Source: Shigella phage Tf. From it: a stretch of 64,000 nucleotides of DNA. The stretch lies in sequence record OR980947; one strand, given 5' to 3'. The notes below the pieces were generated by a model. That model worked only from the letters and a program-made list of their open reading frames with translations, had not been told where the DNA came from and searched no databases. The position numbers were made by a program, and so were the translations under genes. This document shows, piece after piece, positions 15,698-52,244 of this stretch; position 1 is the first letter of the stretch, and the number at the start of each line of letters is the position of its first letter.

Positions 15698-15855
15698 CCT
15701 AATAAGATTTAAAGCCAAGCTTCATTCGGATGTTGCTTTGGTATACCGCGTGTATTGTTGTACACATTGATAAAACACCTAGTAGGTGTCACGGAGAAGA
15801 GATAATATCAAGCTCTCCAAAGGTTCTAGTCACCGGATTAAACAAGACTATGCAA

Positions 15856-15876
15856 AGACCTAAATAGGTCTTTTTA
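15856..15876 (+). terminator. terminator-like hairpin inside tRNA cluster
   Basis: agacctaaataggtct + ttttt. Confidence 0.45.
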
Positions 15877-15954
15877 GAGGGCTTCTAAGGTTATTACAGC
15901 TTGTTGTGGAACCTTGTTGCTTAGGTTCTTAGAAGTTCTCTAAAAAGATTTAAT

Positions 15955-16029
15955 GGGAGATTGATGGTAATTGGTAAACCTATCTCGCTTAGAACGAGAT
16001 GTTTGAGGGTTCGAATCCCTTGTCTCCTA
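15955..16029 (+). tRNA. tRNA with Leu-type anticodon TAG but short variable region
   Basis: acceptor gggagat/gtctcct, anticodon stem tctcg/cgaga loop ctTAGaa, T-loop GGTTCGAATCC, A73, CCA encoded; only 5 nt between anticodon and T arms. Confidence 0.5.
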
Positions 16030-16039
16030 CCAAATTAAT

Positions 16040-16112
16040 GCAGGTGTAGCAAAATGGTTATGCGGCTGACTCTTAATCAGTAAGACGATGGGTTCAATTC
16101 CCTCCACCTGTA
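16040..16112 (+). tRNA. tRNA-Lys (anticodon CTT)
   Basis: paralogue of the TTT tRNA at 14806; anticodon stem ctga/tcag loop ctCTTaa; T-loop GGTTCAATTCC; CCA encoded. Confidence 0.6.
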
Positions 16113-16121
16113 CCAGACATT

Positions 16122-16194
16122 GGGGATGTAGTTTACATGGTTAAAACATAAGTTTTGCAAACTTAAGTACAGGGTTCAATTCCCTGCTTCTCCA
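16122..16194 (+). tRNA. tRNA-Ala (anticodon TGC)
   Basis: D-stem gttt/aaac, anticodon stem taagt/actta loop ttTGCaa, T-stem cagg/cctg, CCA encoded. Confidence 0.7.
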
Positions 16195-16203
16195 CCAATT
16201 AGT

Positions 16204-16275
16204 GCATCCATAGTTTAAACGGGAAAATTACAGTCTTCCAAACTGAGGTTGAGGGTTCGATTCCCTCTGGATGCT
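16204..16275 (+). tRNA. tRNA-Gly (anticodon TCC)
   Basis: perfect acceptor gcatcca/tggatgc, anticodon loop ctTCCaa, T-loop GGTTCGATTCC, CCA encoded. Confidence 0.75.
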
Positions 16276-16284
16276 CCAAACAAT

Positions 16285-16358
16285 GCTGCTTTCGTATAAT
16301 TGGCTATTACACATCCCTTGTAAGGATGGAAATGCAGGTTCGAGTCCTGTGAGCAGCA
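16285..16358 (+). tRNA. tRNA-Thr (anticodon TGT)
   Basis: acceptor gctgctt/gagcagc, anticodon stem catcc/ggatg loop ctTGTaa, T-loop GGTTCGAGTCC, CCA encoded. Confidence 0.75.
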
Positions 16359-16456
16359 CCAATTCAGAGGTCAAGTGAAAGACCGCTGGTGTCAACTGAA
16401 GACCGTAACAAATTCCACGGAGTTGAGTTAGCGGCACAACTTCAGACCTCTTTCAC

Positions 16457-16528
16457 ACTCGCTTAGTTTATATGGTAAAACATCACCCTTACAAGATGAA
16501 GAAAAAGGTTCAAGTCCTTTAGTGAGTA
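16457..16528 (+). tRNA. tRNA-Val (anticodon TAC)
   Basis: acceptor actcgct/agtgagt, anticodon loop ctTACaa, T-loop GGTTCAAGTCC, CCA encoded. Confidence 0.7.
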
Positions 16529-16532
16529 CCAT

Positions 16533-16607
16533 GTTCCAGTATCCCAATTGGCAGAGGATGCAAGCTCAAACCTTGTATTAGTGACGGTTCGAATCCGTCT
16601 TGGAACA
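16533..16607 (+). tRNA. tRNA with Leu-type anticodon CAA but short variable region
   Basis: acceptor gttccag/ttggaac, Leu-like D-loop aattggcaga, anticodon stem gcaag/cttgt loop ctCAAac, T-loop GGTTCGAATCC, A73, CCA encoded. Confidence 0.55.
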
Positions 16608-16629
16608 CCAATTTTAAGAGGCTATTTAG

Positions 16630-17187
16630 ATGAGATACTTAAAGTATGCTTCATGGATTTTCTTAGCTTTGTTAGAGCCATTCGCAGCAATCTTAGCAGT
16701 TATCTTAGCACCTTTTGTAGTTCCATTCTATAGTGAGAAGAAAGGACATCTACCTTTCGGATTCAGATGGATGGAGACATATGACAACCCAATTGATGGT
16801 GATGAAGGTCACGTTAAAAGATGGGCTAAGATTAGAAAGATTGGTAATCTTGGTGTCTATTTGCAGAGAGTTGGATGGCTCTGGAGAAACAAAGCTTATA
16901 ACTTCTCTTACCATGTGTTAGGAAGAGACGTAAAAGATGTTACTAAGTGGAAAGGTAATATCAACGTGAGTTCTGACCCTGAAGATAATCAGACAGGTTA
17001 TCTCCTAATGTGGAACAGTAATGCTTGGGGATTATTCGCTTTTGTCCCATCAATTAAAATCTTTGGTAAACAATTCTACTGGAGAATTTATGTTGGATGG
17101 AAACTAAAAAGTGTTGTCCCAGAAGAAAGAGCATTCTCAAGGGAAAGAGTTATGTTGGCATTCTTTATTCATCCACTGAGAAAGTAA
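16630..17187 (+). CDS. hypothetical membrane protein encoded inside the tRNA cluster
   Basis: ORF 185 aa; N-terminal hydrophobic segment (IFLALLEPFAAILAVILAPFVVPF); Trp/Tyr-rich. Confidence 0.45.
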   Translation: MRYLKYASWIFLALLEPFAAILAVILAPFVVPFYSEKKGHLPFGFRWMETYDNPIDGDEGHVKRWAKIRKIGNLGVYLQRVGWLWRNKAYNFSYHVLGRDVKDVTKWKGNINVSSDPEDNQTGYLLMWNSNAWGLFAFVPSIKIFGKQFYWRIYVGWKLKSVVPEERAFSRERVMLAFFIHPLRK

Positions 17188-17195
17188 AGATTTAA

Positions 17196-17268
17196 AGGGG
17201 ATTAGTTTACAAGGTTAAAACCTCGGTCTTTGAAATCGAAGAAGTTGGTTCAATTCCAACATCCCCCG
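17196..17268 (+). tRNA. tRNA-Gln (anticodon TTG)
   Basis: anticodon stem tcggt/atcga loop ctTTGaa, T-stem gttgg/ccaac, CCA encoded. Confidence 0.7.
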
Positions 17269-17273
17269 CCAAT

Positions 17274-17349
17274 GCTCCATTACTCCAATTGGCAGAGAGG
17301 CCAGACTTAAAATCTGTGTTATGTATCGGTTCGAATCCGATATGGAGTA
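17274..17349 (+). tRNA. tRNA with Leu-type anticodon TAA but short variable region
   Basis: paralogue of 16533-16607 (shared aattggcaga D-loop); anticodon stem caga/tctg loop ctTAAaa; T-loop GGTTCGAATCC; A73; CCA encoded. Confidence 0.5.
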
Positions 17350-17357
17350 CCAAATTT

Positions 17358-17430
17358 AGCGGTATAGCATAACTGGCAATGCAGCAGTCTCTGAAGCTGT
17401 CTTATTAAGGTTCAAATCCTTATGCCGCTG
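17358..17430 (+). tRNA. tRNA-Gln (anticodon CTG)
   Basis: D-stem gcat/atgc, anticodon stem gcagt/gctgt loop ctCTGaa, T-loop GGTTCAAATCC, CCA encoded. Confidence 0.7.
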
Positions 17431-17434
17431 CCAC

Positions 17435-17464
17435 TTCTAAGGGTTCTTACGAGAGTCTTTAAAT
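17435..17464 (+). promoter_or_regulatory. conserved motif cttctaagGGTTCTTACGAGagTCTTTAAAtg (copy 3)
   Basis: just upstream of tRNA-His. Confidence 0.35.
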
Positions 17465-17537
17465 GTGGCCTTATCATAAATGGTAATGACCCATGCTGTG
17501 AACATGGTCTATACGGGTTCAAATCCCGTAGGTCACC
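17465..17537 (+). tRNA. tRNA-His (anticodon GTG)
   Basis: D-stem tcat/atga, anticodon stem ccatg/catgg loop ctGTGaa, T-loop GGTTCAAATCC, C73, CCA encoded. Confidence 0.75.
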
Positions 17538-17545
17538 CCAATTTA

Positions 17546-17620
17546 TAGTCCAAGTAGCTTATATGGTTAAAGCGCGTGTCTGAAAAACATGAGAAGAGGG
17601 TTCAAATCCCACTGGACTAC
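17546..17620 (+). tRNA. tRNA-Phe (anticodon GAA)
   Basis: perfect acceptor tagtcca/tggacta, anticodon stem cgtgt/acatg loop ctGAAaa, T-loop GGTTCAAATCC; D region slightly irregular. Confidence 0.6.
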
Positions 17621-17638
17621 CAATTTCAAAGGTGCTTA

Positions 17639-18373
17639 ATGAAAGAGATGACAGGACAAGGTAAGGAGATTTTTAATCTCTTAAAAACCGGTAAAGGGTT
17701 CTCTAACCCGCTTATTACTGGTGCAGCAGTTCTCGGTGGAACCGTAGCTGCTTCTACATCACTTGTAAGCTCTATTAGTTCTGTAACAGACCCTACAATG
17801 AAGGAGAAACTTGTTGCTGCTGGACTTACAACAGCCCTTCTAAACAGCTTTACAACAAGCCTGACAAGTACTACAGCAACTACTAAGACCCTAACAGACT
17901 ATGGTCAAAAGTCTATTGATGAGTTTTCATCACGTATGCAGGTAGCAAAGGGATACTCCAATGTTATGGGTGCAGCAGGAGAACAAGTTGGTTGTACACC
18001 ATTCAGTGGTATCATGGGTGTTGCTACAGAGTATGGTCAAAAAGCTATTGACATGATGAACAGTGCACTAGATAGTGTTAACGATGTATTAAGTGACTTA
18101 CAAGACGCTATTGACAAGGGTCTTGATACTGTTTCTGATTTAGCTAACCAAGCTGTCAGTAAGATTAATGAAGGTATCTCGAAGATTACAGCTTATGCAG
18201 ATGAAGTTGTGCAGATGATTGAAGAAGAAGCTGCCCTTATTGCAGAGTACCTTAAAACGAATATCAATGGGTTCTTAGCAGGTATCTTACCAGACTGGTT
18301 TGATGATGCTTGTAAAACTGGTGTAATTGACACTATTGCAACACCAGAAATGAAGAACGCATTACAGAAATAA
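17639..18373 (+). CDS. hypothetical protein, Ser/Thr/Ala-rich (start trimmed to avoid tRNA-Phe)
   Basis: ORF-track ORF 17576-18373 overlaps tRNA-Phe; in-frame ATG at 17639 preceded by aaaggtg. Confidence 0.5.
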   Translation: MKEMTGQGKEIFNLLKTGKGFSNPLITGAAVLGGTVAASTSLVSSISSVTDPTMKEKLVAAGLTTALLNSFTTSLTSTTATTKTLTDYGQKSIDEFSSRMQVAKGYSNVMGAAGEQVGCTPFSGIMGVATEYGQKAIDMMNSALDSVNDVLSDLQDAIDKGLDTVSDLANQAVSKINEGISKITAYADEVVQMIEEEAALIAEYLKTNINGFLAGILPDWFDDACKTGVIDTIATPEMKNALQK

Positions 18374-18375
18374 AT

Positions 18376-18465
18376 GGAAGATTAACCCTAAAAGGTAAGG
18401 GAGCAGTTTGCTAAACTGCCAGTAGCTGAGAAATCGGTGTACCAGTTCAAGTCTGGTATCTTCCT
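18376..18465 (+). tRNA. tRNA-Ser (anticodon GCT), long variable arm
   Basis: 90 nt; acceptor ggaagat/atcttcc, anticodon stem gcagt/actgc loop ttGCTaa, long variable arm, T-arm accag-TTCAAGT-ctggt, CCA encoded. Confidence 0.7.
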
Positions 18466-18472
18466 CCAATTT

Positions 18473-18545
18473 GAATCCGTGACAGAAACGGCTATGTGCC
18501 TGTCTGCAAAACAGGTTTATAAGGGTTCGAGTCCCTTCGGATTCT
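18473..18545 (+). tRNA. tRNA-Cys (anticodon GCA)
   Basis: acceptor gaatccg/cggattc, anticodon stem cctgt/acagg loop ctGCAaa, T-arm aaggg-TTCGAGT-ccctt, CCA encoded. Confidence 0.7.
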
Positions 18546-48207: not shown

Positions 48208-48435
48208 TCAGAGACCAATACTAATACGTTCACCCTTAAGAACTCCAGTACGGTCTTTTGCAATCTTCCCTTCAACAATAAGAATGTGTGCAGACCTTAA
48301 AGTGTCACTGTTAAAACCTTTTACGAACTTACTAGGCATCACTACAATAGACATCTCCTGAATCAAATCTGGAGTGTAGCAATTGTCGTGAAGTTGCTGA
48401 ATAACGTCTGCAAGTGTCATTTTTGATGTCTCCAA
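48208..48435 (-). CDS. hypothetical protein (75 aa)
   Basis: ORF-track ORF. Confidence 0.35.
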   Translation of the reverse strand: METSKMTLADVIQQLHDNCYTPDLIQEMSIVVMPSKFVKGFNSDTLRSAHILIVEGKIAKDRTGVLKGERISIGL

Positions 48436-48626
48436 TACTCAATGTCAATAAGTTCTTGTGCAATGCTTTTCAGATTACCTTTCAAGAAAACCTTCTCAGA
48501 ACCTGAAAGAGATGAATTGTCAATTAACCTGTTCATTCTCTCAAACAACTTCTGCTTACGATTCTTGATAGTTTCCTTTGAAGCACCTTTCATCATCGCT
48601 GCATGGGTTCTTCCACGGTGGCTCAT
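48417..48626 (-). CDS. hypothetical protein (69 aa)
   Basis: ORF-track ORF. Confidence 0.35.
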   Translation of the reverse strand: MSHRGRTHAAMMKGASKETIKNRKQKLFERMNRLIDNSSLSGSEKVFLKGNLKSIAQELIDIEYWRHQK

Positions 48627-48677
48627 AAGCCCTCCTATACAAGATATAGTATAAGGTACTCTTCCATGAGCACCTTG

Positions 48678-49229
48678 TCAAATTAGTTTTGCAAACTCTC
48701 CGTGGAGTTTAATAGCAGCTTCACAGTAAGCTTTATGGGCTTCTTCAGGCGTGTCAAACATACCAAGATGATAGTTTTTACCTTGTAAACGTATCATTGC
48801 TCGAAACCTTTTATTTATCTTCTGTACACCTTTTGGCAACCCAGATAGGGACTTTCTTGACCGATTGCAAGAGTTTTGTGAAGCTGTACAAACCCTTAAA
48901 TTCAAGTACCTATTGTCCCAACCATCCCCATTCTTATGGTCAACCTGTAAGGTTTTATCAGGCAGATATCCATCAATATACAAGATAACTAAACGATTTG
49001 CTTGGTAACTCCTTCCATCAATCAGCAACTGAACTGACTTGTGTCCATCAGTATTTGTTCTGTAGTTTCCAGCCCTCTTACCTCCAAATCTAGAGTTAAA
49101 ATTTGCATTACCTTCTCTAAACTTCCAAGTAAAGACCCCTGTTTCGGGGTCGTAGTCCAATAGCTCCTTAAGACGAATTTCTGTAATCATTTCAACACCA
49201 TCAATGTACCTCATACCAGCTCTTACCAA
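48678..49229 (-). CDS. HNH homing endonuclease with AP2 DNA-binding domain (free-standing)
   Basis: HNH core QVDHKNGDGWDNRYLNLRVCTASQNSCN and AP2-like LPKGVQKINKRFRAMIRLQGKNYHLGMFDTPEEAHKAY; overlaps 3' end of DNA polymerase exon 2. Confidence 0.8.
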   Translation of the reverse strand: MVRAGMRYIDGVEMITEIRLKELLDYDPETGVFTWKFREGNANFNSRFGGKRAGNYRTNTDGHKSVQLLIDGRSYQANRLVILYIDGYLPDKTLQVDHKNGDGWDNRYLNLRVCTASQNSCNRSRKSLSGLPKGVQKINKRFRAMIRLQGKNYHLGMFDTPEEAHKAYCEAAIKLHGEFAKLI

Positions 49230-49757
49230 CCTTACCTGTGCCAGTTACAAGCGTCTCACTCTTCAAACCTAAATTCTTAGATGCCTGACCATACATCCAG
49301 TCAGTTATGGCTTTAACTTCTTGAGTCATACTTTCTGGGCATTCCCAACTGTTCTCATCGTGGTATGCCAGCAAAAGTCTAGCACCAATTGCTGGTTTCC
49401 GTCCATTTAATTTTGTCAACCCTTCTTCACATGCTCTTCTACAAGCAAGGTTAATTGCCTCGTTCTGAATCTGACTTTCCGAACCCATGAGCAAATAATT
49501 CAACAACTTATGTGGAGATTTACACCACAACCAAGCTCCAGCAACCTTTACAAAACCCCCTTTAGAGATTGCAGCAGTCTTACCAAACACCTCTTCAAGA
49601 GCCTTTTTAGTTGCTTTGTAGTCAGCTTCCAAGTCATCTAGCAGCTTCTTAATCTTTGGCAAACGCACAAAGTAAGTCTGTTTAGTTAATGCACCTTCCT
49701 GAGTAGTGGCTGCCTTAATAGTTTTAGCAAACTTTTCATCACCTGCACCGAACAATA
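49201..49757 (-). CDS. DNA polymerase (family A), exon 2: C-terminal part from motif B second half through motif C
   Basis: starts ..LFGAGDEK (T7 pol LYGAGDEK), contains motif C LLAYHDE and ends ...WYEVH like T7 DNA polymerase. Confidence 0.8.
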
Positions 49758-50068
49758 CATCTGGTCAATACACTCGCAAGGTGTACCAGTTCTCTTATGA
49801 ACTTCTCCGCATTTCTACGGAGTGTCGGACTATATCACGTAGTAGTAATACTACCGTTGCACTTGGGAATGGTCATTAGCTTACCACCCTACTCTACTCA
49901 GTTCATACATTAAGTATGCTTTTCGATAGTCTCTGAACGTTTCTCTGTTAGGAATCTCTATAGTTATGTTATTTGCTTTAGGAGTCCTAACAGAGACTTC
50001 GCTGCTGATTACCATATCTTTACAGACTTAGGCTTCCAGCAATTCACAACGTTTTACATGCGCCACTG
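49758..50068 (-). ncRNA. group I self-splicing intron interrupting the DNA polymerase gene
   Basis: on the minus strand: exon 1 ends in U pairing with G of internal guide gcgcat (P1), terminal G before exon 2, and P/Q/R/S-like core elements aattgctggaagcc, aatcagcagc, gttcagagacta, gatatagtcc in canonical order; no long ORF inside. Confidence 0.75.
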
Positions 50069-52244
50069 ACGCATAGATACCATTCTTAGCCTTCTTGCGG
50101 CCTTTACTAATCTCATGAAGAAGATTCTCATCCTGAGTAGCTCGACAAGTCAAGATGTCCTGCTCATCATTCAAGCTAAAGTAAATACTGTTCAGTGTAT
50201 GTGCATCAGTCCCTGAATAGACAACGTACAGGTCATTCTCAGAGTCATAGCGCAGGTACTTATCAATCTCTGGGTTGAGGTACTCATCAAAATGTTTACA
50301 GTAATAACGTCCATCTTCTTGACGAATAAACTCAATCTCTTCTTTACCTTGCGTTACCGCTTTGGTGAACTCTTTATCACCCATAAAGTTACAAAGTAGA
50401 ACTAACTGGGCTGAGTTCATATCAACAGAGACTACGTTGGTTCCCTCTTCACAAATCCACACCTCCCTCATAGGTGCTCCATAGACAGCAGCACCAGACG
50501 GTACGTTTACAATACCATATTGTGTCATTCGTCCAGTTGAAGTACCAAACACCATTGCACCAGCACTAAGGCGACCATCAGGACGAATCTGGTTCAACCA
50601 ACCTTTTTCACCATCCTTTGAGTTCTCAATAGTTCTGCGTCGGTGCATCAAAGTATAGTACTTAGCAATCTTCTGTCCAAGCTCACCTTCAATCGTATCA
50701 TAAGAAGACTCAGTAAGTTTTGGTGAAGTACGGATTAAGCAAGGTTCAAGCAAATCTGTGTACTTCTTCACAGACCAGTTATGCTCAATGTACTGTACAC
50801 CTTCATGTTCAACATAGCTCAAACCACACCGCTCAACCATTTCCTGCCACTTAGGATGTTTTGTAATCATCTTTTTATTGTCTTTGAAACGACAAACTTT
50901 GACAGGGCGACCGTCTGAGTCTTTCTTGTAGTTCCAGTCATCTGGAATCCAACCAACTGATTTCAAGTAGTCTTTAACAACTGCTACCTGAGTCATACGA
51001 GAAACTTCAAAATCAATTGGTGTATATGGTGCATCAATCAAACCTGTGTAGCGACTTGACTCAAGTTCAAAGTGGTTAACAACGTGACTGTTATAGTACT
51101 TCACAGTTTTAACTGTTTTTACTGGCTTCCAGTCTTTGCATTTCTTACCAATCTTTGCATTCAACTCATTGCAAATTGCACGAGCATCCTTCATTGCTAC
51201 AAAGCCTTCCTTGTACTCTTCACCAGTTACAGAGTTGGTTGGTGTATAGCAATTTCTCTTTTCAATGTTAAAAATCTTTGTAGTTGGCTTACCAAATGGC
51301 TTGATTTCATATGTCTGCATCTCACCGTTACGTACCTGCTGACGATACTTTGTCTTAGGGTACTTGGTAATTCTTTTCAGTCCATCTGCATGACCAAATG
51401 TTTCAACATACTCATTCCAAGCTTTTGCAAACTCTTCTCCAGTGACTTTACCTTTGGTCTTAATAGTTGGAGGAAGATGTGGTTCAACTTCTGAAGCAAG
51501 CTCATTAGTCAACTTGTCAAGTTCCTTTACATGGAACTCCATAAGTTCTTTATCAGCTTTCCAACCATTGATAGCCTGTTGACTCATCCAGAAAGATGTT
51601 TCTTTAGCTCGCATGTAGGTTTCATAAGTGTCTATGCCACACTTCTTAAGCTTGAGATACTCATTATCAAGTGCCCGTTTAGTTTTGGCGTTAATACGGA
51701 TATCTTCTACAACACGAGTGAAGATTTCTGCATTCCACACACCCCAATGCTCAATCTCTGGTTTACGAACACCAACACGAGCACCCCATGCAGCCAAACC
51801 ATGAGCACCTTTATAACCCTTTGGAGTTGGTCTATCCATCCACTGAACACGAGACTGGATAAGAGAGTCCTGAAAGAAATTACTCCACGGTTTACACTTT
51901 GGGTTATCAAAGTTCCATAAATCAGGTGCAATGTGATTGAAAACCCACCAGTCATAACCGAGACCGTTATGGATGCAAAGACGTTTTGCCTTTAACGCAA
52001 ATTCAACGCCTTCACGCAAACCACCTTTAATGTACTTGGTATACTTGTGACCGAGGATAGGCTCATCTGTAAAGACCCATACAGGCGGCTCTTCATCGTC
52101 AGATTTATAGTCTGCGAAAGCCATTACGTGCACTTTAGTGAACTCAAGGAGTAAACCATCAGTTTCTGTATCACCAACCAAATGTAAGTTTTTAAAATCT
52201 ACGTTTTCCATTTCTACTCCCTCTAAATCATTAACCTCATACAT
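50069..52244 (-). CDS. DNA polymerase (family A), exon 1: 3'-5' exonuclease and polymerase domains up to first half of motif B
   Basis: Exo I motif VGDTETDGL; motif A-like VSVDMNSAQL; ORF-track ORF ends RKKAKNGIYAS... with stop 12 codons into the intron. Confidence 0.85.

What the first reader, a model, noticed from the sequence alone, without database searches (positions are those of the whole stretch)
48678..49229. Free-standing HNH-AP2 homing endonuclease immediately downstream of the intron-containing polymerase
The ORF has an HNH nuclease core (VDHKNGDGWDNRYLNLRVCTASQNSCN) followed by an AP2-type DNA-binding domain, the architecture of phage homing endonucleases. It overlaps the last codons of polymerase exon 2 rather than sitting inside the intron. 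This matches the 'collaborative homing' arrangement, where a free-standing endonuclease and an ORF-less group I intron are separate but adjacent.
Basis: partly seen in the sequence, partly recalled or inferred. Interest (0 to 1): 0.6.

Follow-up and report, generated by a model that had tools for sequence, protein, structure and literature searches.

The report
Free-standing HNH-AP2 homing endonuclease gene

Summary
Window 48678..49229 (minus strand) is an intact ORF with an HNH_3 nuclease core and a C-terminal AP2 DNA-binding domain. It lies directly after a family A DNA polymerase gene that a 311-nt group I intron (49758..50068) splits in motif B. The window is a Felixounavirus.

The collaborative-homing reading is not supported.
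- The slot after the polymerase stop codon is either empty or holds one of four HNH-AP2 lineages in relatives.
- All combinations with intron absent, minimal, ORF-less or nuclease-carrying occur.
- In GenBank phages, 10 of 27 records with this HNH lineage have the intron; independence predicts 10.0.
- HNH-positive, intron-free phages have the same 60 nt at the intron insertion site as HNH-free ones.
- In relatives the same intron carries its own endonuclease VII-type gene. The window's copy is a deletion derivative that keeps that gene's last codons.

Best reading: an independent free-standing homing endonuclease cassette under purifying selection (dN/dS about 0.1), next to an intron that lost its own nuclease. 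Its cleavage site is unknown. Occasional passive co-conversion of the intron cannot be excluded. This is a known kind and already annotated, so interest is low.

The parts
48678..49229 (-). Longest ORF of the HNH-AP2 endonuclease (183 aa, TTG start; stop TGA at 48678-48680). The probable real start is the ATG at 49190 (170 aa).
   Evidence: The ORF is intact in all lineage A copies, with dN/dS about 0.10.
48870..49004 (-). HNH_3 nuclease domain (aa 76-120). The catalytic-type residues D97, H98, N110 and N119 align with I-HmuI D74, H75, N87 and N96.
   Evidence: Pfam; alignment to 1u3e; D-H and N residues invariant across lineages.
48699..48821 (-). AP2-type DNA-binding domain (aa 137-177).
   Evidence: 26.3 bits, below cut-off; sister lineages 38-54 bits; profile against WRI1 AP2, 1.1e-11.
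49201..49757 (-). DNA polymerase A exon 2, containing motif C (YHDE); stop codon at 49201-49203.
49758..50068 (-). ORF-less group I intron (311 nt) in the motif B codons. Exon 1 ends ...TATGCGT and the intron runs CAGTGG...CAGATG.
   Evidence: Rfam 62.9 bits; boundaries from intron-less ekra; fold, z = -3.8.
49969..49986 (-). Deletion scar in the intron hairpin, GACTCCTAAAGCAAATAA. It joins the leader that precedes the Endonuclease_7 ORF in relatives to that ORF's last codons and stop.
   Evidence: alignment of the 311-, 268-, 780- and 801-nt intron forms; Endonuclease_7, E 9e-20.
50069..52244 (-). DNA polymerase A exon 1.
48627..48677 (-). Spacer after the HNH stop codon. It is the same sequence as the 3' part of the 61-nt spacer of empty-site phages and marks the right boundary of the cassette (|CAAGGTGCTCATGG...).
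48417..48626 (-). Conserved 69-aa downstream gene (PHROG 5180, function unknown). In empty-site phages it follows the polymerase directly.

Best explanation
The ORF is a free-standing homing endonuclease gene of the widespread phage HNH-AP2 family. It has an I-HmuI-like HNH nuclease core, probably a nickase, fused to an AP2 DNA-binding domain. It is a self-contained cassette of about 520 nt (a 9-nt leader, 170 codons and a stop) inserted 1 nt after the polymerase stop codon, where it replaces 9 nt of the spacer found in relatives that lack it. Inferred mechanism: in a mixed infection the enzyme nicks or cuts the allele that lacks the cassette, at or close to the polymerase-end/spacer junction that the cassette itself disrupts. 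Repair from the cassette-bearing genome then copies the gene in, together with a variable stretch of the polymerase 3' end (intronless homing). It is an element separate from the group I intron 530 nt upstream. That intron belongs to a family with its own Endonuclease_7-type homing endonuclease and has lost that gene by deletion in this phage. What is shown: domain architecture, intact catalytic-type residues, purifying selection, precise presence/absence at one site, four allelic lineages, and independence from the intron. What is inferred: nuclease activity, target position and the homing process itself.
For: Domains. Precise slot: the polymerase stop falls at the same position in all loci; the next gene starts 61 nt later in empty-site phages, or an HNH-AP2 gene of 167-187 aa lies in between. 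There are four lineages (A is at least 90% identical to the window; B about 43%; C about 50%; D about 40%). Mobility: the closest copy (HMD-P8, 99.4% aa) sits beside a polymerase exon 2 only 79% identical, and L008 carries lineage A in another background. Function: dN/dS is 0.08-0.13 at dS up to 0.7, and all ORFs are intact. Flank signature: close empty-site relatives are 95-100% identical to the window up to about +250 of exon 2, then only 70-80% to the stop, and 98.6% again in the downstream gene; lineage A and B phages stay at 95-100%. Independence from the intron: 10 of 27 lineage A GenBank records have an intron against 10.0 expected from 96/260. Sequence-verified examples exist of lineage A with no intron, with the 311-nt, the 268-nt and the nuclease-carrying intron, and of the identical 311-nt intron beside lineage B or a C-like HNH. 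The intron's own nuclease and the scar. The family is common, with relatives in 1592 phage records.
Against: No cleavage data exist, and the target site cannot be read from sequence. With 8 lineage A loci only three scattered exon 2 columns (323, 449, 553) separate them from empty-site phages, so there is no clear immunity haplotype and the target placement is a guess. The polymerase 3' haplotype is shared by lineages A and B and is not constant within lineage A, so the flank signature could reflect general recombination rather than homing. Purifying selection is also compatible with a domesticated function. AP2 for this one protein alone is below Pfam's cut-off.
Confidence: 0.8

Rival explanations
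1. Strict collaborative homing. [quoted passage not shown]
For: The geometry fits the published cases of a free-standing nuclease next to a gene with an ORF-less intron (PMC3984707; PMC10448857). The intron is in a highly conserved motif.
Against: Most lineage A phages lack the intron, and co-occurrence equals the chance expectation (10 of 27 against 10.0). The 60 nt around the insertion site are identical in HNH-positive/intron-free and HNH-free/intron-free phages, and no column from -1200 to +319 separates them. A break at the insertion site would carry the intron in every homing event, so HNH-positive/intron-free genomes should be rare. The same intron sits beside lineages B and C or an empty slot. 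The intron has its own nuclease in relatives. Caveat: I-HmuI-type nickases can nick their own DNA (from my own knowledge of the SPO1/SP82 work), so the self-cleavage argument alone is not airtight.
Confidence: 0.04
2. Trans homing by hitch-hiking. The enzyme nicks somewhere in the polymerase 3' end or the spacer, and repair tracts sometimes extend the 530 nt to the intron, so the nuclease-less intron is occasionally mobilised in trans, as T4 MobE does for the defunct I-TevIII intron.
For: The distance is well within the reported co-conversion range of up to 2 kb (PMC2790892). The intron has lost its own nuclease. Six of the 10 records with the 311-nt form carry lineage A.
Against: Those phages are each other's closest relatives, so the association may be by descent. 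Close lineage A phages with and without the intron differ only at 4 nt at the exon junction, so the intron gain or loss tract was under about 30-60 nt and did not reach the cassette. The identical intron is found with lineages B and C.
Confidence: 0.15
3. Domesticated or defensive nuclease. The protein is kept because it benefits the phage, for example by excluding markers of co-infecting relatives or acting as a DNA-binding regulator, rather than acting mainly as a selfish homing element.
For: Strong purifying selection. HNH-AP2 genes are very frequent near essential genes (PMC10448857).
Against: Presence/absence and lineage replacement at one site among near-identical phages is the pattern of a dispensable mobile gene. 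Many relatives do without it.
Confidence: 0.1
4. Decayed, inactive relic of a homing endonuclease.
For: Homing endonuclease genes commonly decay after fixation. A neighbouring example is the frameshifted intron nuclease in L010.
Against: The ORF is intact in every lineage A copy, the D-H...N...N residues are conserved, and dN/dS is about 0.1.
Confidence: 0.03

Closest known systems
HNH-AP2 homing endonucleases of phages, cyanobacteria and ciliates (Magnani, Sjolander and Hake 2004, as cited in PMC10448857; the six HNH genes of Felix O1, PMC3185647)
   Same: The architecture is the same: an N-terminal region, an HNH_3 core and a C-terminal AP2 domain. It is free-standing, lies next to an essential replication gene, and its orthologues are annotated in GenBank as HNH (homing) endonuclease.
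   Different: Nothing material. No member at this polymerase-downstream site has, to my knowledge, been characterised biochemically.
I-HmuI (PDB 1u3e), the intron-encoded HNH nicking endonuclease of Bacillus phage SPO1's DNA polymerase gene
   Same: It is the closest solved structure for the nuclease part (E 1e-3 for the single sequence, 1.5e-8 for the profile). The motif VDHK.G...N...NLR....N is shared, and both are associated with a family A polymerase gene that has a motif-region intron.
   Different: I-HmuI is encoded inside the intron and has a helix-turn-helix C-terminal domain, not AP2. Here the gene is outside the intron.
Collaborative homing: F-CphI with the psbA intron of cyanophage S-PM2, and the T3/T7-like polymerase case (Zeng et al. 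2009; Bonocora and Shub 2009, as summarised in PMC3984707)
   Same: [quoted passage not shown]
   Different: The nuclease and the intron assort independently. The insertion site is not distinguishable between carriers and non-carriers. The intron has its own nuclease in relatives.
T4 MobE with the I-TevIII nrdB intron, 'trans homing' (PMC2790892)
   Same: A free-standing HNH gene lies a few hundred nt from an intron whose own nuclease is defunct or deleted.
   Different: No evidence here of nuclease-dependent inheritance, and the conversion tracts at the intron are very short.
HEG islands and HEG turnover (Barth et al. 2023, PMC10448857)
   Same: Several nuclease genes cluster around an essential gene, cognate slots hold non-homologous or divergent nucleases, sequence identity breaks at the nuclease gene, and an intronic nuclease has been purged while the splice junctions stay intact.
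   Different: That study did not, as far as I could find, treat Felixounavirus. Here the intermediate stages are all present among sequenced relatives.

Membership tests
HNH (beta-beta-alpha-Me) endonuclease, HNH_3 / I-HmuI-like | Match to the HNH_3 profile above the curated cut-off | tested here: met
   43.4 bits against 24.8; PHROG 99 at 6e-61.
HNH (beta-beta-alpha-Me) endonuclease, HNH_3 / I-HmuI-like | Catalytic-type residues (Asp-His general base pair, structural Asn, metal-binding Asn) are present | tested here: met
   D97, H98, N110 and N119 align with I-HmuI D74, H75, N87 and N96. D-H and N-L-R are invariant across the four lineages.
HNH (beta-beta-alpha-Me) endonuclease, HNH_3 / I-HmuI-like | Metal-dependent DNA nicking or cleavage | not testable with these tools
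   Needs a biochemical assay.
AP2 DNA-binding domain | Match to the AP2 profile or to solved AP2 domains | tested here: met
   The single protein scores 26.3 bits, below the 33.3 cut-off. Lineages B-D at the same site score 38-54 bits. The family profile hits WRI1 AP2 at 1.1e-11 and ERF096 at 2e-6.
Free-standing homing endonuclease gene (intronless homing) | Not embedded in an intron or intein | tested here: met
   The ORF starts after the polymerase stop and is 530 nt from the intron.
Free-standing homing endonuclease gene (intronless homing) | Precise presence/absence polymorphism at one site among close relatives | tested here: met
   Empty sites have a 61-nt spacer; occupied sites have cassette boundaries defined to the nucleotide.
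Free-standing homing endonuclease gene (intronless homing) | Divergent flanking tract co-inherited with the gene | tested here: inconclusive
   Identity breaks sharply over the last 300 nt of the polymerase against close empty-site phages. However, the haplotype is shared with lineage B and is not constant within lineage A.
Free-standing homing endonuclease gene (intronless homing) | Cleaves the allele lacking it and is inherited at above-Mendelian frequency | not testable with these tools
   Needs cleavage assays and phage crosses.
Collaborative homing (free-standing nuclease plus ORF-less intron) | [quoted passage not shown] | tested here: met
Collaborative homing (free-standing nuclease plus ORF-less intron) | [quoted passage not shown] | tested here: not met
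   This is an indirect test. The insertion-site sequence is identical in HNH-positive and HNH-free intron-less phages, and no discriminating column exists from -1200 to +319. Direct cleavage was not testable.
Collaborative homing (free-standing nuclease plus ORF-less intron) | Nuclease gene and intron are inherited together | tested here: not met
   10 of 27 lineage A records have an intron, against 10.0 expected. All combinations are verified by sequence.
Trans homing (MobE / I-TevIII type) | A nuclease-less intron lies within co-conversion distance of a functional free-standing nuclease gene | tested here: met
   530 nt apart; the intron nuclease is deleted, leaving a scar.
Trans homing (MobE / I-TevIII type) | Nuclease-dependent inheritance of the intron | not testable with these tools
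   Needs crosses. The sequence hint is against it, because the conversion tract at the intron is under about 60 nt.
Group I intron (context feature) | Covariance-model match above the gathering score, U.G at the 5' splice site, terminal G, and an in-frame splice | tested here: met
   62.9 bits against 50. P1 is AUGCGU/GCGCAU with a U.G pair, the intron ends in G, and the spliced product equals the ekra protein.

The most novel reading that the evidence does not exclude
The polymerase region of Felix O1-like phages is a natural series of homing-endonuclease turnover. An intron that lost its Endonuclease_7 gene by deletion would now be kept in circulation in trans by the neighbouring HNH-AP2 nickase through co-conversion over 530 nt. 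The more than 250 sequenced relatives, which hold every intermediate state, would then let the collaborative-homing and turnover models be tested directly.
Probability: 0.15. Interest if true: 0.45.

Novelty: already known. Interest (0 to 1): 0.2.

Why it matters
It matters little as a discovery. The gene is a routine member of a very common phage nuclease family and is already annotated in near-identical GenBank genomes. The useful outcome is a correction: adjacency of a free-standing nuclease gene to an ORF-less intron is not evidence of collaborative homing. Here comparative data show two independent mobile elements, and an intron that once had its own nuclease. That pattern is what the 'HEG turnover' alternative of Barth et al. 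(2023) predicts. The Felixounavirus polymerase locus could serve as an experimentally tractable system (E. coli K-12 hosts, many natural variants) for measuring homing, co-conversion tract length and competition between nuclease lineages.

Tried and rejected
1. I looked for an 'immunity' haplotype that would point to the target site. Six lineage A loci gave 10 discriminating columns in the last 240 nt of the polymerase, including a cluster just before motif C. After adding HMD-P8 and PC79-13 only three scattered columns remained, so the motif C target idea was dropped.
2. No column separates lineage A from all other states, or intron-positive from intron-negative alleles.
3. The promoter and terminator scan gave nothing convincing for an own promoter or a terminator around the cassette. 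The one 'terminator' lies inside the ORF.
4. tblastn of the protein against the window found no convincing paralogue within these 64 kb.
5. The literature searches found no paper describing the Felixounavirus polymerase intron or this nuclease specifically. Whichard 2010 reports six HNH genes and no introns in Felix O1 itself.
6. Magnani et al. 2004 (PMC520932) is not held, so it is cited only through PMC10448857 and from memory.
7. Searches failed on a file name and on coordinates and were repeated.
8. I did not run structure prediction, fold search or the large protein-database searches, because sequence profiles already settled the domain question.

Full report
**What is there.** The window is a Felix O1-like myovirus (genus Felixounavirus). 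The 4.5 kb around the finding matches 260 GenBank phage records; warpig, garuso and Mushroom are the closest, at 96-97%. All genes here are on the minus strand.

The ORF at 48678..49229 (183 aa from a TTG start) contains the quoted motif at aa 96-122.
- Pfam gives HNH_3 (E 2.6e-11, above the cut-off) and AP2 (E 9.6e-6, below the cut-off).
- PHROG 99 'HNH endonuclease' matches at 6e-61.
- The nearest solved structure for the nuclease part is I-HmuI (1u3e), with D97-H98, N110 and N119 aligned to its catalytic-type residues.
- A profile of this protein and its allelic relatives hits the AP2 domain of WRI1 at 1.1e-11 and I-HmuI at 1.5e-8.

The HNH-AP2 architecture is therefore real.

**The polymerase and its intron.**
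- Upstream lie two pieces of a family A DNA polymerase, separated by a group I intron (Rfam 62.9 bits against a gathering score of 50).
- Comparison with the uninterrupted polymerase of phage ekra places the intron exactly at 49758..50068 (311 nt).
- Exon 1 ends in U, paired with G in P1. The intron ends in G. Splicing restores ...RKKAKNGIYA|LLFGAGDEK..., which is motif B.
- This is the only intron in the window.

**The overlap with the polymerase.**
- The 29-nt overlap exists only for the longest ORF.
- In lineage A relatives the first 13 codons change together with the polymerase C-terminal codons (MRY, WKC, WKY), while the rest of the protein is 91-99% conserved.
- The start common to all copies is the ATG at 49190, 10 nt after the polymerase stop, and HMD-P8 is annotated that way.

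**A nuclease slot.** I compared 40 related loci: 3 + 6 GenBank records and 31 IMG/VR contigs.
- The polymerase stop is at a fixed position in all of them.
- In 'empty' phages the next gene (69 aa, PHROG 5180) or another small gene starts 61 nt later.
- In the others an HNH_3 + AP2 gene of 167-187 aa lies in between.
- Four lineages occupy the slot: A (the window's type, at least 90% aa identity), B (about 43%), C (about 50%) and D (about 40%).
- The cassette begins 1 nt after the polymerase stop and ends at its own stop codon, just before CAAGGTGCTCATGG. It replaces 9 nt (TAGTATGGA) of the empty spacer.
- All four lineages share an almost identical last 70-105 nt (93-99% nt identity), so exchanges between lineages seem to use the gene's 3' end as a homologous flank.

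**The gene is functional and mobile.**
- Lineage A genes are intact everywhere and show dN/dS of 0.08-0.13 at dS up to 0.7.
- The closest copy (HMD-P8, 99.4% aa) sits next to a polymerase exon 2 only 79% identical to the window's. L008 carries lineage A in yet another background.
- Close empty-site relatives (L012, L014, L016) are 95-100% identical to the window from -1200 to about +250 of exon 2. They then drop to 70-80% up to the stop and return to 98.6% in the downstream gene. Lineage A and B phages stay at 95-100%.
- This asymmetric break is the kind of boundary seen next to homing endonuclease genes (PMC10448857).

[quoted passage not shown] Four results go against it.
1. *Distribution.* The intron is in 96 of 260 records and lineage A is in 27. 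Ten records have both, and independence predicts 10.0.
   - At least 14 lineage A records are intron-free. ekra and Alf5 were checked by sequence. The others were inferred from coverage arithmetic and single-polymerase annotation.
   - Lineage A occurs with the 311-nt intron (warpig, garuso, Mushroom, NS7), the 268-nt form (HMD-P8, LNA1) and the nuclease-carrying form (PC79-13).
   - The identical 311-nt intron occurs beside lineage B (EC106, NJ12) and a C-like gene (S19cd).
   - Nuclease-carrying introns occur beside empty slots (L009-L011, L026).
2. *Insertion site.* The 60 nt around the insertion site are identical in HNH-positive/intron-free phages (L002, L003, L005) and HNH-free/intron-free phages (L012, L013, L015, L016). 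No alignment column from -1200 to +319 separates lineage A from empty-site phages.
3. *Conversion tract.* Close lineage A phages with and without the intron differ only at 4 nt at the junction (GCGT|TATTG against GCAC|TGCTG). The intron was therefore gained or lost with a conversion tract far shorter than the 530 nt to the cassette.
4. *The intron's own nuclease.* The intron is not primitively ORF-less.
   - Relatives carry a 160-aa Endonuclease_7 gene (E 9e-20) in the long hairpin.
   - The window's form keeps the leader in front of that gene fused to its last codons and stop (GACTCCTAAA|GCAAATAA, 49969..49986).
   - A 268-nt form lacks the whole hairpin extension, and L010 shows a frameshifted nuclease gene.

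One caveat applies. I-HmuI-type nickases are known to nick their own phage's DNA (from my own knowledge), so the self-cleavage argument is not conclusive alone. The distribution argument does not depend on it.

**Where the enzyme cuts.** This is unknown. An apparent cluster of lineage A-specific substitutions just before motif C disappeared when two more lineage A loci were added. The only consistent difference next to the cassette is the polymerase end itself: CAT TGA against CAC TAA/TGA plus the replaced spacer. The simplest guess is a target at or near the junction that the insertion destroys. I hold this with modest confidence.

**What remains possible.** A nick in the polymerase 3' region could occasionally drag the nuclease-less intron along, as in trans homing by T4 MobE (PMC2790892). 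The geometry allows it. The short tracts and the intron's presence beside other lineages argue that this is not the main route.

**Comparison and novelty.**
- HNH-AP2 homing endonucleases in phages have been known since 2004 (cited in PMC10448857).
- Felix O1 was reported to have six HNH genes (PMC3185647).
- Near-identical genes are annotated as HNH homing endonuclease in GenBank.
- Relatives occur in 1592 phage records.
- I found no paper describing the Felixounavirus polymerase intron series, but it is visible in existing annotations.

The finding is a correct recognition of a known element with an unsupported mechanistic add-on. The picture fits the 'HEG turnover' alternative to collaborative homing.

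Noticed in passing
window 49969..49986 (-), within the intron 49758..50068: The 311-nt intron is a deletion derivative of a 780-805-nt form that carries a 160-aa Endonuclease_7-type gene in relatives. The leader before that gene is fused to its last codons and stop. A third, 268-nt form lacks the 43-nt hairpin extension altogether.
   Followed up: yes
window 49881..50015 (-): A 44-aa ORF lying wholly inside the intron is annotated as a hypothetical protein in warpig, EC106, NJ12 and others. It runs across the deletion scar in a frame different from the lost nuclease gene and has no family match, so it is probably not a gene.
   Followed up: partly
L010 (IMG/VR copy of an 88,403-nt phage), intron nuclease ORF from 3327: The intron-encoded Endonuclease_7 gene has a 22-nt deletion and is frameshifted. 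This is a decay stage between the intact nuclease and the deleted form seen in the window.
   Followed up: partly
window 48678..48785 (-) and the same part of loci L004-L034: The four HNH-AP2 lineages are 40-53% identical in protein overall but share the last 70-105 nt at 93-99% nucleotide identity. This suggests that partial gene conversion swaps the 5' four-fifths of the gene.
   Followed up: partly
window 49201..49500 (-): The last roughly 300 nt of the polymerase gene form a separate haplotype block. They are 70-80% identical to otherwise 95-100% identical empty-site relatives and include amino-acid changes around motif C (ACEEGLTKL/LLLAYHDENS against MIDEGLMKL/LLCAYHDETS).
   Followed up: partly
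L038 (MW006475.1, Salmonella phage GEC_vB_BS) 2021..2426: In this GenBank record the intron is followed by only 34 nt of exon 2 and then the last roughly 70 nt of an HNH gene. The essential polymerase exon 2 is missing, so this is probably an assembly error or a defective genome.
   Followed up: partly
one search hit list (not in the window): The intron query also matched 22 Staphylococcus phage records and a few Bacillus and Erwinia phage records at 60-80% identity, so related group I introns occur in distant phages. Records named Campylobacter phage A132/A126 and Staphylococcus phage SA1 contain Felixounavirus-like sequence, which suggests mislabelled or mixed records.
   Followed up: no
window 13703..18545 (+): There is a cluster of 22 tRNA genes, as expected for a Felix O1-like phage.
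   Followed up: no
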